In this document: positions 56,669 to 60,922 of the stretch, piece after piece | Numbering within the stretch: position 1 is the stretch's first letter | How the letters are laid out: each line of letters begins with the position of its first letter | DNA from: Spizellomyces punctatus DAOM BR117 | Lineage: Eukaryota | Assembly (NCBI GenBank): GCA_000182565.2 | Contig: KQ257452.1 | Strand: one strand, 5' to 3' | Length of the DNA stretch: 64,000 bases | Made by a program: the position numbers and the translations under genes | The notes under the pieces: model-generated | The model's input: only the letters and a program-made list of their open reading frames with translations | Databases searched by the model: none | Told to the model about the DNA's origin: nothing

Positions 56669-58631
56669 TCAACCGCACTCAGGCTCATCTGTGTACCCGC
56701 CGCCTCCTTCAGCTGCATATTCGTCAAATTCAAACTCTCCGCGCAATTCCTGTGTCCACCCATCGCCTCCTTCCATGTCGTGTTGTATGCGAAGCTGAGG
56801 TTTCCATCGGTTCTTTTTCGATGTCCCCTTTGCGCGAGGCTTTCGTCGAGGTCTTGCGCCAGCTGTGTTCTGTTCACCCCTTGCGCTGTCCGCATCTATC
56901 AGTTCATCTTTCGAGAACCTTGCTTCGGCTGCTCGTCGTTGCATCGGTATTTTTGCCGTGCGCTCCACAGTGCCTGGCTTTACCGGCACATATACCGGTG
57001 GAGCGGTTTTCAGTGTTGGATTGCGGAATTGACCGCTGGAGCCTGGATCCTGGGGTGGTGACGCGGGGCGTGGGGGTTGCGTCTCTACTGAATGGGAATA
57101 CTGTGAGTGAGCCGTACCGCGCGAAACAAGTAGTCATTACAAAAACCATACCAATTTTGTGAACCTGTGAAATGGGTGGTTTGGGGGTTGAATCGATAAC
57201 GCGCTTGTTGACGAGATCCAGCGTAATCACTCGTCGTCGTTTCTGCTCCTCCTCGAGTCTACGCTGTTCTTGCGCTTTCTTCAAGGCTAAGGCACGCTCT
57301 TCGGCACTGAGCCACTTGTTCGATGCATCTTCATCGTAGTTGAAGTCACTTGCTTGGTCTGATACGCCAGAGTTATAATCGCAAGTAATCAAGAGGTCAC
57401 CAAGTATCGTCTTACCATGAACTCTCGTTCTTGCAGTGCTATTCCGTTGGAAATCCAACAGTTTTTCCATCTGGGCTTCGGCGCGCGCTAACGCCTGTTG
57501 ATCCTTTTCCGTCATGAGAGTCGGGAACTGAGACTGATCGGCGCCATTGGGTGTCCTCGCAATCGACGCAGCAGAAGGCACCTGAGCACCAGCTGCCTGT
57601 CCGTATCGCGCACCTACATAGGCATCTCTACCCCTCCCTACTTTGGACGAACGAGTAGGAACACCCTTGCTCTTCCTTTCCTGGACAAGTGTGACCTGTT
57701 GCTGTTTAGAGTAAACAGGAGTTCCGCAGCAGGGACAAGGTCCTTCCCCTTCCAATCGGCATATCACTTTCCCACATGTCAAACAGTTCGTAATCAGTCC
57801 ATGGGTTGCAGCTGAATTAAGAGCGGGTAAGAAACTGATGCATTGTCAAAAGCACAAGATACAGGAAGTCTGGCAACGGGCCATACCTAAGCATTCACAG
57901 ACCACACGACCGCCAAATCCAGGAGGGGCATTTCCGACTTTCACCATTCCATCCAGACTATCCAGGGTGGCTGCGGCTGCAGCTACATTCATTCGTTCCT
58001 TCTTTCCCTTCTTTTGTTTATACTTTGGTGCTTGTGTGGACCGATCGTCAATCTTCACTGACGATAGTTTGTCGCTCAACAATTCTCCCTCCAAAGGACG
58101 CGATGGTGCTTTCGGAGAAGGTGCACTCGATGTTTTCGATCCCCTGGTTCTGCAAAGTACATACATGAACTCGGATCTCAACCGTACAGCGCGTCATGTT
58201 TATCCTACCCCTTGAAATAGTCCTCTTCCATATCAGGTTTTCTGTACACATTTTGTTCATCCTTGAAATGCTTCTTGAGTTGTGCGGGCGATCCGTTTTT
58301 ACTAGGAGTTGAAGCCTACTATAACGCTAAGTGTTTGTGCCAAGTCACGGATATCGCTAAAGGTTCAAGCAGGCTGTACCTGAGCGTCAGTGGTTTTCAG
58401 CGGTGCCGTCCAGGCCCCTTTCGTAACCACAGGGGGAAACCGTCTTGTATTGAACTCTTGAATAAACAGCACCGCAGGCGATGAGTCGCCCAGCATGCCA
58501 GTTAGAAATTCGACTACCGCTTCAGGGGAAGTAATTTGCAACAAGTACGCCGTGATTTGCTGCAGTTCTTCCCCGTCTAGGCCCATCAACGCCGATAGGC
58601 GGTCCTGCGCCCATCCGTCCACAGTGTTCAT
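56669..58631 (-). CDS. Rqt4/TRIP4 (ASC-1)-like zf-C2HC5 protein without ASCH domain
   Basis: N-terminal WAQDRLSALMG...EFLTGMLGDSSPAVLFIQEF; VCECL|AATHGLITNCLTCGKVICRLEGEGPCPCCG; KLLDFQRNSTARTRVH|DQASDF; KWLSAEER. Confidence 0.85.
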
Positions 58632-58934
58632 TTGAGACGATGAGTGCTCCTGGTCCAGAGTGTGCTGTGGGCGAGTTTCCAATGCTTGACATGAGTCATT
58701 GTTGATATAGCAACAGTAGAATACACGTGCCTTGATGATGCAACTCTTTGGAGGCAAGTTCCCGACGACTTTTGCGTCTTGTCCTGCACCTCCTAAAAGA
58801 CAATTTGACTAGCAGGTGAGCTATGGAACAGTCGGATTGCGAATGCACTATTGCAAGCAACTCACTATCGACGTCCCTCCTACTTCAGCCTTTTGCCTGG
58901 CTTTCTCTAGAGACCTTTAATAGACGGGGCAGAA

Positions 58935-60922
58935 ATGGCCTTCTTCACACCACAAGACGTTAAAGCTTTGAAAAGCTACAAATACAGCGGAGTAGACAAG
59001 TCGATAATATCGCGATACATAGTTTGTATCTTCCCGTCCTTGTCAGAACCTTTATTTGCTTCCGTGTAAGCCATAACCATTCTCACTTGTGATAGTTGAA
59101 TCCCTACTGGTGGAACAACTTGGTCAAGATTTTCCCATTATGGTTTGCGTACGTATACTAACAGAGAGAATCCTTGATGTGATGCTGGGTCGGTACTGAT
59201 TGGAACGTAATATCATGTGTAGCCCCAACCTCATAACGCTGACGGGTCTGAGCATTGTTGGGGCCAACGTCATGCTCCTTCTCTACTACTCGCCTGACCT
59301 TCAAGAACCATGTCCGAATTGGGTCTACTACAGGCAAGGAGAGACGAGTATATGAGCTAGTTTGACTCAGATCCTTAATAGAGAACTAATTCGAGGACTG
59401 CCTATAGTTTTGCTGTCGGCCTCTTTCTATACCAGTCCTTCGACTCGATAGATGGAAAACAAGCGCGTCGAACGGGGACGAGTGGACCTCTCGGGGAGCT
59501 TTTTGATCAGTGAGTGTACGAATCGTGATTACCGCTGTCTGCCAGAAAACCTTACCCATGTTTCCGTGCAGTGGTATGCATTGTGTGCGCAATTGCCACG
59601 CCAGGATTAGTCAACCTATAGCTATCATTTGATATCACAACTAACTTAATTTGTTGTATTAAACCATAGGATGTGATGCCCTCAATACCACAGTACGTAG
59701 AGTTGGTGCATTCGATTGTCTCATCGCGTCGCTAACCAGGCAAGCTCTACCATTAGTTAGGAGGACTTCTACTTGGTTCGGCAATGAATCTTCATCAGTC
59801 ATGGTGGCTGATTTTCAGTTTGATGTCCGGTAAGTCCTTGCATTAGCTCTGTCTTTGAGGATACGTCGCATACCCACATGTCGTAGCGCTTGGCAATTTT
59901 TATCTGAGTACATGGGAAGAATATCACACTGGAACATTATATCTTAGTTACTGCAGTGGGCCCGTGGAGGGCATTCTGTTGATCGTGTTCATTTTCATAG
60001 TATCTGGCCGATATGGTGAGTGAACGGATATACCGATTTCATACACTGGCATCTTCTAACAATAGTGCAGGGCCTGAAATCTGGGATCGCCGTATATCTG
60101 CCACGTTTCCGAGTGTCGCTTCTCTCCTGCCTTCTACAATTGCGGAATTAAGGCTGAACGAATACTTTCTTGGTATTGGTGCGGTGTTTCTTGTATTCAA
60201 TATTGTCAGCGGGTATGTCGCTTTGTTGTCAAAAAAGGCACTGCTGCAGCCTCAACGTATGTTGTTGTAGGGGATTGAACGTCTTCCGCGCCTCCGGTGC
60301 ACGGAAAAGGAGCACCGTTGTTGCTATGCTGGGCCTTCTTCCCTTTGTTGCCTTCACTTTTGGCATTTTCACGTGGCTGAAACTCTCGCCATCTATTCTA
60401 ACGACGCATCTAATCCCCTTTTCGTTACTGGTCGGCTGTCTATTTGGTCACCAAGTCGGAAAGATGATTATCGCGCACGTCTGTCGGCGCTCATTCCCAT
60501 ACTTTGATTTTCCGATTTTCTTGATCGTAACGATCGGGAACTTGAGTGCCTTTGTTTTCCGTAATTGGGAGCTTACGGATGGTGCCAATTCTGGTCCCGT
60601 CCTCCGTAGCGCTTTTCCCAATGAGCTGTCTCACTGGCTTCAGGGTCTCTTGGAAAAACTCTTTGGTCACGTGGAAAGGATTGAGGACGCTGCTTTCATG
60701 GAAGGAACTATTGTGCATGTTCTGCTCTGTGTTGCCGTCTTTGCGTATCTGAGATTTGCGTTAAGGGTGATTCACGAACTGTGCGAGATCTTTGACTGTC
60801 ATTGCCTGAGGATCAAGAAGAAAGTTATCAAAGTTCATGGAACTGCAAAGTTTCCGCATGGAAAGGTTGGACGGGAGGGTACCCCTGGGAGGATGGGGGA
60901 AGAAAATCGAAAGTTGGAATAG
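58935..60922 (+). CDS. Choline/ethanolamine phosphotransferase (CDP-alcohol phosphatidyltransferase, EPT1/CPT1-like)
   Basis: [80 protein letters not shown]. Confidence 0.95.

What the first reader, a model, noticed from the sequence alone, without database searches (positions are those of the whole stretch)
59510..59669. 2-nt micro-exon inside the catalytic DHGCD motif of the EPT1/CPT1 gene
Seen: ...TTT GAT CA|gtgagt(59510)...gtgcag|TG(59572-59573)|gtatgc...ctaac...catag(59669)|GA TGT GAT GCC. Only inclusion of the 2-nt exon restores F-D-H-G-C-D-A, part of the conserved CDP-alcohol phosphotransferase signature. Removing one 160-nt intron gives CAG ATG TGA, a frameshift and stop. Both flanking introns (62 and 96 nt) have consensus ends. 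Exons this small are rare and gene predictors usually miss them. Inference: splicing is intron-defined or sequential, and skipping could act as an off switch.
Basis: partly seen in the sequence, partly recalled or inferred. Interest (0 to 1): 0.8.

Follow-up and report, generated by a model that had tools for sequence, protein, structure and literature searches.

The report
Two-base exon in chytrid phospholipid-synthesis gene
A chytrid fungus gene for the last enzyme of phosphatidylcholine/-ethanolamine synthesis can only encode its catalytic histidine if a two-base exon between two short introns is kept, and public gene models miss it; such tiny exons are rare but already known in fungi and plants.

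Summary
A 10-exon gene (58935-60922, + strand) encodes a 457-aa CPT1/EPT1-type CDP-alcohol phosphotransferase. It aligns end to end with four chytrid orthologs at 60-66% identity.

Exon 4 ends with CA and exon 6 starts with GA. Only the TG at 59572-59573 restores D-H-G-C-D; it lies between a 62-nt and a 96-nt GT-AG intron. The His is present in 118 of 118 homologs that keep the motif. It is the proposed catalytic base of CHPT1 (PMC10182977).

A suitable AG|YG|GT site arises in 0.18-2.7% of shuffled introns. Intron 5 sits where 3 of 80 other fungal loci also have an intron. Intron 4 therefore looks like a later addition.

The Spizellomyces punctatus reference protein (361 aa) is reproduced exactly from the window by skipping the TG and starting at an out-of-frame ATG. 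The S. 'palustris' and Fimicolochytrium models also break at this spot.

RNA reads were too shallow to show the junction, so inclusion is inferred, not seen. Two-base exons are already documented in fungi: 57 in Coprinopsis (PMC12230235). The 'off switch' idea has no support.

Verdict: real, a new member of a known kind, of moderate interest.

The parts
58935..60922 (+). CPT1/EPT1-type choline/ethanolaminephosphotransferase gene, ATG to TAG. It has 10 exons and 9 introns and encodes 457 aa.
   Evidence: The model was built. It aligns end to end with chytrid orthologs P0001-P0004 at 60-66% identity.
59408..59509 (+). Exon 4. It encodes [33 protein letters not shown] plus the first two bases (CA) of the His codon.
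   Evidence: Pfam PF01066 matches this exon alone at E=8.1e-4, 20.2 bits, below the 22-bit cut-off.
59510..59571 (+). Intron 4, 62 nt, GTGAGT...GTGCAG, phase 2 inside the His codon. The best branch-like site is CCTTAC, about 18 nt before the AG. It is probably the lineage-specific intron.
   Evidence: None of the 80 metagenome loci has an intron at this position. It has no similar copy elsewhere in the window.
59572..59573 (+). 2-nt micro-exon TG. It supplies the third base of the His codon (CA+T) and the first base of the Gly codon (G+GA).
   Evidence: It is the only frame-restoring solution that gives DHGCD. The chance of such a site is 0.18-2.7%. His is present in 118 of 118 homologs that keep the motif.
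59574..59669 (+). Intron 5, 96 nt, GTATGC...ACTAAC...CATAG, phase 1 inside the Gly codon. This is an old intron position.
   Evidence: L035, L066 and L077 have an intron at the same position (CAT G|GT...AG|GN).
59670..59692 (+). Exon 6, 23 nt. It encodes (G)CDALNTT.
   Evidence: Seven metagenome loci appear to have an intron at the same place as the following intron, after NTT (not checked in detail).
59334..59407 (+). Intron 3, 74 nt, with a GC-AG boundary (GCAAGG...CTATAG).
   Evidence: It is needed to give ...[12 protein letters not shown] as in the orthologs. No nearby GT donor keeps the frame, from reading.
59452..59454 (+). Out-of-frame ATG inside exon 4. The public S. punctatus model (P0124, 361 aa) uses it as its start codon.
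   Evidence: P0124 is reproduced letter for letter from window exons 59452-59509, 59670-59692, 59757-59829, 59887-60019, 60066-60212 and 60271-60922.

Best explanation
The TG at 59572-59573 is a real internal exon of two nucleotides, and it has to be included in the mRNA. The gene encodes the chytrid CPT1/EPT1 enzyme, which makes phosphatidylcholine and/or phosphatidylethanolamine from a CDP-alcohol and diacylglycerol.

Two short GT-AG introns (62 and 96 nt) are each recognised on their own, by intron definition. The acceptor of the first and the donor of the second lie only 2 nt apart, so the two introns are most likely removed one after the other, much as in recursive splicing. Joining CA+TG+GA gives CAT GGA, the His-Gly of the G-E-x-x-D-H-x-x-D signature. 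That His is the proposed catalytic base.

The downstream intron sits at an old position shared with other fungi. The upstream intron appears to have been added 2 nt further 5' in the Spizellomyces lineage, and this created the micro-exon.

Shown: the sequence anatomy, that no other solution exists, the conservation of the motif, and the errors in public gene models. Inferred: inclusion of the TG in mRNA, sequential removal of the introns, and intron 4 being the younger one.
For: - Anatomy and uniqueness.
- Chance: 0.18-2.7% of 20,000 shuffles give a comparable site.
- With the TG, the 457-aa product carries [23 protein letters not shown] at residues 99-121. It aligns end to end with P0001-P0004 at 60.3-65.6% identity.
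- Of 121 fungal homologs, 118 have D-H-x-x-D, all 118 with His.
- In the homologous xlCHPT1, H133A nearly abolishes activity (PMC10182977, passages).
- Residues 1-117, which lie upstream of the micro-exon and are left out of the public model, match the four chytrid orthologs at 89-93 of 116-117 positions. Residues 127-457 match at 164-186 of 306-315. The upstream exons are therefore under selection and must be read in frame with the rest.
- Three independently annotated relatives are wrong exactly here. P0124 (S. punctatus) uses the 160-nt skip and an out-of-frame ATG. P0122 (S. 'palustris', 322 aa, no Pfam domain) starts out of frame in exon 6. P0003 (Fimicolochytrium jonesii) reads FDQA..LL.
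- Intron sizes of 62 and 96 nt fit the gene's other introns (55-74 nt) better than a single 160-nt intron would.
- L035, L066 and L077 have an intron at the intron-5 position.
- Exons of 1-2 nt are documented elsewhere: PMC12230235, PMC4674806 and PMC8831610 (passages).
Against: - No RNA read across the junction was obtained. The one RNA raw-read run laid (X8) has reads of at most 60 nt and sense depth below 1.5 over exons 4-7. No joint reached the reporting threshold for any intron in that run.
- The public S. punctatus model uses the skip junction. If that model rested on transcript evidence, a skipped isoform may exist. I could not see its evidence.
- Intron 4 has no consensus CTRAC branch site, only CTTAC (read).
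- Genomic DNA of the relatives was not available, so conservation of the micro-exon is inferred only from broken protein models.
- P0001, P0002 and P0004 have an intact DHGCD in their annotations, so the micro-exon is not universal in Spizellomycetales, or was modelled correctly there.
Confidence: 0.85

Rival explanations
1. Sequence or assembly error. Two bases (TG) are missing at the exon 4/intron boundary. The true gene would have one intron of about 160 nt at the old phase-1 position (CAT G|GT...AG|GA), and the internal AG|TG|GT would be coincidence.
For: The conserved intron position in other fungi is the phase-1 Gly position (L035, L066, L077). A 2-nt gap is a common kind of error. No DNA run that was laid covered 59510-59669; the X3 contig spans only 59878-60870.
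Against: The window's coding exons reproduce the public S. punctatus protein exactly. Two other species' models break at the same codon (P0122, P0003). A suitable AG|YG|GT with a GTNNG donor arises in only 0.18-0.28% of shuffles. A 160-nt intron would be by far the longest in this gene; the others are 55-96 nt.
Confidence: 0.04
2. The TG is normally skipped. The locus then makes only a truncated or NMD-targeted product, or the 361-aa protein of the public model. It would be a decaying or repurposed gene without the catalytic N-terminal half.
For: The public model P0124 uses exactly the 59509-to-59670 junction. No read showing inclusion was seen.
Against: The 361-aa model starts at an out-of-frame ATG. 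It lacks D1xxD2G1xxAR...G2 and the His. Exons 1-4 are open, have canonical introns, and are the best conserved part of the protein, at 76-79% identity to orthologs. All 10 exons are free of stops.
Confidence: 0.05
3. A single non-canonical intron, for example GT...AT (59510-59667), restores the frame without the TG and gives D-Q-G-C-D.
For: This is the only single-intron option that keeps the D-x3-D spacing.
Against: An AT acceptor paired with a GT donor is not a known splice-site class (established knowledge). It would replace the His, which is present in 118 of 118 homologs that keep the motif and is needed for activity in xlCHPT1 (PMC10182977).
Confidence: 0.02
4. The micro-exon is real but alternatively included. 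Regulated skipping, which gives a frameshift and probably NMD, would tune synthesis of the enzyme.
For: Skipping gives F-D-Q-M-stop. The closely spaced splice sites could compete. The public model contains the skip junction.
Against: There are no expression or isoform data of any kind. Documented 1-nt exons in plants include constitutive cases (PMC4674806, passages).
Confidence: 0.1

Closest known systems
Exons of 1-3 nt in the long-read annotation of the mushroom Coprinopsis cinerea (PMC12230235; passages read)
   Same: These are internal exons of 1, 2 or 3 nt in a fungus: 13, 57 and 27 exons respectively. Leaving one out creates a premature stop in 63 of the 89 gene models that carry such an exon. 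They break standard gene models.
   Different: That study is in Basidiomycota and is transcript-supported. This case is in a chytrid and is inferred from homology only. I could not see whether a CPT1/EPT1 gene is among those cases, because supplements are closed.
Single-nucleotide exons of plant APC11 and VPS55 (PMC4674806 and PMC8831610; passages read)
   Same: These are exons too small for exon definition, missing from reference annotations, which leaves N-terminally wrong proteins. The authors propose one-after-the-other removal of the flanking introns by intron definition plus a recursive-like step.
   Different: They are 1 nt rather than 2 nt and are in plants. They were validated by RT-PCR and reporter assays, which is lacking here.
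Recursive splicing at ratchet points (PMC8605326; abstract only, from the listing)
   Same: An acceptor is followed directly by a donor, so removing the upstream part regenerates a 5' splice site that is used in a second step.
   Different: Ratchet points leave no bases behind and subdivide very long introns. Here 2 nt must stay in the mRNA, and both introns are short (62 and 96 nt).
Stwintrons, the spliceosomal twin introns of filamentous fungi (PMC5639578, PMC6616335; abstracts only, from the listing)
   Same: Two U2-type introns in immediate contact are removed by consecutive reactions in fungi. They are thought to arise when one intron inserts next to or into another.
   Different: In a stwintron the inner intron interrupts a splice signal of the outer one, and the whole unit is removed. 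Here neither intron interrupts the other's GT, AG or branch site, and removing the whole 160 nt destroys the reading frame.
Yeast Cpt1, Xenopus CHPT1 and human CEPT1 (PDB 8ul9/8urt, 8ero, 8gyw)
   Same: The protein belongs to the same enzyme family. Ortholog P0004 matches yeast Cpt1 at E=3.6e-69. The window's product carries the extended signature G-E-x-x-D-H-x-x-D (PMC10182977).
   Different: It has a longer C-terminal tail shared with P0004. Its preference for choline or ethanolamine is unknown.

Membership tests
CDP-alcohol phosphotransferase, CPT1/EPT1 (CHPT1/CEPT1) type, Pfam PF01066 | Signature D1xxD2G1xxAR...G2xxxD3xxxD4 | tested here: met
   The spliced model has D-S-I-D-G-K-Q-A-R ... 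G-E-L-F-D-H-G-C-D; the regex match covers residues 99-121. It is met only if the TG exon is included.
CDP-alcohol phosphotransferase, CPT1/EPT1 (CHPT1/CEPT1) type, Pfam PF01066 | Eukaryote-specific Glu and His (G2ExxD3HxxD4), proposed as the catalytic pair | tested here: met
   GELFDHGCD is present. The feature is defined in PMC10182977 (passages).
CDP-alcohol phosphotransferase, CPT1/EPT1 (CHPT1/CEPT1) type, Pfam PF01066 | A Pfam PF01066 match above the gathering score | tested here: inconclusive
   Only single exons could be submitted. Exon 4 alone scores 20.2 bits against a 22-bit cut-off, E=8.1e-4. The orthologs that align end to end all carry a precomputed PF01066 domain.
CDP-alcohol phosphotransferase, CPT1/EPT1 (CHPT1/CEPT1) type, Pfam PF01066 | Full-length similarity to characterised members | tested here: met
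   The model is 60-66% identical to four chytrid orthologs over 426-441 aligned positions. Ortholog P0004 matches yeast Cpt1 (8ul9) at E=3.6e-69.
CDP-alcohol phosphotransferase, CPT1/EPT1 (CHPT1/CEPT1) type, Pfam PF01066 | Enzyme activity and choice of substrate (CDP-choline or CDP-ethanolamine) | not testable with these tools
   This needs an enzyme assay or complementation.
Ultra-short internal exon (micro-exon of 3 nt or less) | Flanked directly by a canonical acceptor and a canonical donor, each belonging to a complete intron | tested here: met
   The context is GTGCAG|TG|GTATGC. The flanking introns are 62 and 96 nt, with GT-AG ends and branch-like sites.
Ultra-short internal exon (micro-exon of 3 nt or less) | Needed to keep the reading frame and conserved residues | tested here: met
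Ultra-short internal exon (micro-exon of 3 nt or less) | Seen in transcripts (junction reads or cDNA) | tested here: inconclusive
   In one search, sense depth over the neighbouring exons is below 1.5 and reads are at most 60 nt. No joints were reported for X8. An X1 contig confirms splicing of intron 9 only.
Ultra-short internal exon (micro-exon of 3 nt or less) | Conserved in the genomic DNA of relatives | not testable with these tools
   No eukaryote genomes are held. There is only indirect evidence, from broken protein models of S. 'palustris' and F. jonesii.
Stwintron (nested spliceosomal twin intron) | The inner intron interrupts the donor, branch site or acceptor of an outer intron, and the whole unit is removed | tested here: not met
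   Removing the whole of 59510-59669 shifts the frame and gives a stop. Two bases must remain in the mRNA.

The most novel reading that the evidence does not exclude
Intron 4 is a recent insertion placed 2 nt upstream of an ancient intron. The resulting micro-exon is not fully constitutive. Competition between the two abutting splice sites would let the cell skip the TG, which causes a frameshift and mRNA decay, and so adjust output of the last Kennedy-pathway enzyme, for example between the zoospore and the growing sporangium.
Probability: 0.08. Interest if true: 0.6.

Novelty: new member of a known kind. Interest (0 to 1): 0.35.

Why it matters
- It corrects a gene model in a model chytrid. 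The public S. punctatus 'cholinephosphotransferase 1' protein lacks about 100 N-terminal residues and most of the catalytic signature. It would be scored as inactive or misjudged in comparative lipid-metabolism studies.
- It extends exons of 3 nt or less to an early-diverging fungal lineage. It is also a clean case in which one intron position is old and the neighbouring one appears to be added. That is useful for studying how intron gain next to an existing intron creates micro-exons, and how intron-defined spliceosomes handle abutting sites.
- It is not a new principle.

Tried and rejected
- RNA evidence. The look-up of sequencing runs listed no holder on record as RNA. I laid X8 (RNA raw reads, same species label), X3, X1 and X2. 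X8 is 3'-biased, with reads of at most 60 nt and sense depth below 1.5 over exons 4-7. No joints were reported for it, so it says nothing on inclusion or skipping. X3 is an unspliced DNA contig covering 59878-60870. X1 shows only intron 9 spliced. X2 covers only the last exon.
- Whole genome. None is held, so paralogs and genome-wide micro-exons could not be checked.
- Close chytrid genomic loci. The metagenome scan returned 80 fungal loci, none more than 50% identical to the query. They were usable for intron positions only.
- Intron 4 as a repeated introner-like element. No intron resembles another or anything else in the 64-kb window beyond 11-13-nt chance matches. This does not test the rest of the genome.
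- The 5-nt CAGTG repeat at both ends of intron 4. It largely follows from the splice consensus, so I do not treat it as a target-site duplication.
- Single-intron and other internal-exon solutions were rejected.
- Literature. No listed paper in the held library combines S. punctatus with cholinephosphotransferase. The phrase searches for a 2-nt or 2-bp exon returned 6 unrelated papers. Supplements are closed, so I could not see whether a CPT1/EPT1 gene is among the Coprinopsis 2-nt-exon genes.

Full report
**Observation.** The window between 58900 and 60950 was read and translated in three frames. I built a 10-exon model on the + strand:

| Exon | Coordinates |
|---|---|
| 1 | 58935-59021 |
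| 2 | 59096-59148 |
| 3 | 59223-59333 |
| 4 | 59408-59509 |
| 5 (micro-exon) | 59572-59573 |
| 6 | 59670-59692 |
| 7 | 59757-59829 |
| 8 | 59887-60015 |
| 9 | 60071-60212 |
| 10 | 60271-60922 |

The product is 457 aa. Exon 4 ends ...TTT GAT CA. A 62-nt intron follows (GTGAGT...GTGCAG), then TG, then a 96-nt intron (GTATGC...ACTAAC...CATAG), then GA TGT GAT GCC. Eight of the nine introns are GT-AG, and intron 3 is GC-AG. Intron lengths are 74, 74, 74, 62, 96, 64, 57, 55 and 58 nt.

**Is the TG needed, and is it more than chance?** One search listed every internal exon inside 59510-59669 that is bounded by AG and GT/GC and has the right length class. There are 10 candidates:
- Five meet a stop codon.
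- Four are open but insert residues between the two Asp and break the spacing.
- Only 59572-59573 gives D-H-G-C-D.

No single GT-AG or GC-AG intron keeps the frame. The only single-intron option that keeps the spacing has a GT...AT boundary and replaces His with Gln. Removing the 160 nt as one intron gives F-D-Q-M-stop.

I ran 20,000 dinucleotide-preserving shuffles of the intron interior. A site AG-YG-GY with both sub-introns at least 45 nt long appeared in 2.7%. Adding a GTNNG donor brought this to 0.28%, and adding a YAG acceptor to 0.18%.

**What the gene is.** The translated last exon found four Spizellomycetales proteins and one ascomycete protein, all with Pfam PF01066. The spliced model aligns with them from the first to the last residue. 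Identity to the four chytrids is 60.3-65.6%.

Ortholog P0004 matches the solved yeast Cpt1 at E=3.6e-69, and also matches Xenopus CHPT1 and human CEPT1. The model carries [23 protein letters not shown] at residues 99-121. This is the CDP-alcohol phosphotransferase signature, including the eukaryote-specific Glu and His. The authors of the xlCHPT1 structure propose these two residues as the catalytic pair. H133A nearly abolishes activity (PMC10182977, passages read).

I scanned 121 fungal homologs: 120 from the search plus P0005. Of these, 118 have D-H-x-x-D, with His in all 118. The three exceptions are all aberrant at exactly this spot:
- P0003 reads FDQA..LL.
- P0089 reads DHGRCD.
- P0093 reads FDHDDHDD..., which looks like read-through into an intron.

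**How public gene models treat the site.** A search with the last exon among shorter proteins found P0122 from Spizellomyces sp. 'palustris'. It is 322 aa, 97% identical, and has no Pfam domain. Its N-terminus is an out-of-frame reading that starts at an ATG inside exon 6.

Its cluster mate P0124 is the S. punctatus DAOM BR117 protein named 'cholinephosphotransferase 1', 361 aa. P0124 is reproduced letter for letter from the window with exons 59452-59509, 59670-59692, 59757-59829, 59887-60019, 60066-60212 and 60271-60922. The window therefore matches that species. The public model joins 59509 directly to 59670 and rescues an open frame by starting at an out-of-frame ATG within exon 4. It drops exons 1-3 and the D1xxD2G1xxAR...G2 part of the signature.

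The dropped part is the best conserved. Residues 1-117 match the four chytrid orthologs at 89-93 of 116-117 positions. Residues 127-457 match at 164-186 of 306-315 positions. This argues that exons 1-4 are translated in frame with the rest. Only the TG allows that.

**Age of the two introns.** The metagenome scan gave 80 fungal loci, each at most 50% identical to the query. In 77 of the 80, F-D-H-x-x-D is uninterrupted; many of these are short contigs that may be transcripts. In 3 of the 80 (L035, L066, L077), an intron lies between the first and second base of the Gly codon: CAT G|GTAAAT, CAT G|GTATAC and CAT G|GTAAAC, each resuming with ...AG|GN. This is the position of the window's intron 5. 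None of the 80 has an intron at the position of intron 4.

So intron 5 occupies an old, or at least recurrently used, position, and intron 4 looks like an addition in the Spizellomyces lineage. P0003's Gln (CA plus G/A) suggests that the His codon is also split after CA in Fimicolochytrium. I could not see the DNA. Intron 4 resembles no other intron and nothing else in the window, so its source is unknown.

**Mechanism.** Both introns are short and complete, as expected for intron definition in fungi. The acceptor of intron 4 and the donor of intron 5 are 2 nt apart. It is unlikely that two spliceosomes occupy them at once. The authors of the Arabidopsis 1-nt exon paper reached the same view and proposed intron definition combined with a recursive-like, one-after-the-other removal (PMC4674806, passages). 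Either order yields the same mRNA. I cannot tell which is used.

**RNA test.** No listed holder of the stretch is on record as RNA. I laid one RNA raw-read run with the same species label (X8), one unknown run (X3) and two guessed RNA runs (X1, X2).
- X8 is strongly 3'-biased, with depth up to 92 at the 3' end. Its reads are at most 60 nt. Sense depth over exons 4-7 is below 1.5, and no joints reached the reporting threshold for any intron.
- X1 contributes one 234-nt contig with intron 9 spliced out.
- X3 is an unspliced DNA contig covering 59878-60870.

The gene is therefore transcribed and at least partly spliced. The micro-exon junction was neither confirmed nor contradicted.

**Comparison with what is known.** Tiny exons are established.
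- A constitutive 1-nt exon exists in Arabidopsis APC11 (PMC4674806).
- Conserved 1-nt exons of APC11 and VPS55 are missing from plant annotations, which leaves wrong N-termini (PMC8831610, passages).
- In fungi, the long-read annotation of Coprinopsis cinerea has 13 exons of 1 nt, 57 of 2 nt and 27 of 3 nt (PMC12230235, passages).

The present case is not a stwintron, because two bases must stay in the mRNA. It is not a ratchet point in the strict sense either, though it probably works like one. I found no listed paper linking S. punctatus with this enzyme and no relevant paper for the 2-nt exon phrases. Supplements are closed, so I could not check whether a CPT1/EPT1 gene is among the Coprinopsis cases.

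**Verdict.** The reading as a 2-nt exon is well supported by sequence logic and comparative evidence (about 0.85) but has not been seen in RNA. The proposed 'off switch' has no evidence. It is a new member of a known kind. Its practical value is a corrected model for a core lipid-synthesis gene in a model chytrid, and a tidy example of a micro-exon made by one intron landing beside another.

Noticed in passing
window 59334-59407: Intron 3 has a GC-AG boundary (AG|GCAAGG...CTATAG|T). It is required to give [12 protein letters not shown] as in the orthologs, and no nearby GT donor keeps the frame.
   Followed up: partly
window 59022-59095, 59149-59222, 59334-59407: The first three introns are each exactly 74 nt long with 42% G+C, yet show no sequence similarity to each other. 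This may be coincidence or a preferred intron length.
   Followed up: partly
window 60016-60070: The public S. punctatus model uses different ends for intron 8 (GTGAAC...CAATAG, 60020-60065). This adds three residues (GRYGDAGPE instead of GRYGPE). The four chytrid orthologs lack the insertion, and the alternative donor is weaker. It may be a second annotation error or an alternative splice form.
   Followed up: partly
window 58969-59865: In RNA run X8, reads whose first mate lies on the - strand (depth 1-6) outnumber sense-oriented reads (below 1.5) over the 5' half of the gene, introns 1 and 2 included. At the 3' end, + strand reads dominate (up to 92). This could be an antisense transcript or mixed libraries.
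   Followed up: no
window 58365-58757 (- strand): A 130-aa ORF lies on the opposite strand just upstream of the gene. It starts about 180 nt from the gene's ATG, which suggests a divergent gene pair with a shared promoter region. It was not characterised.
   Followed up: no
proteins P0089 (Basidiobolus meristosporus) and P0093 (Linnemannia exigua): Their annotated proteins are aberrant at the same motif (DHGRCD, and FDHDDHDD...). They look like mis-set intron boundaries at the conserved Gly-codon intron.
   Followed up: no
window 59508-59512 and 59569-59573: The 5-nt string CAGTG occurs at both junctions of intron 4. It largely follows from the splice-site consensus but could be a trace of how the intron was inserted.
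   Followed up: no
loci L018, L057, L058, L061, L064, L072, L080: These fungal metagenome loci have GT directly after the N-T-T codons, and the frame then runs into unrelated sequence. This suggests an intron at the same position as window intron 6 (59693), so that position also looks old.
   Followed up: partly
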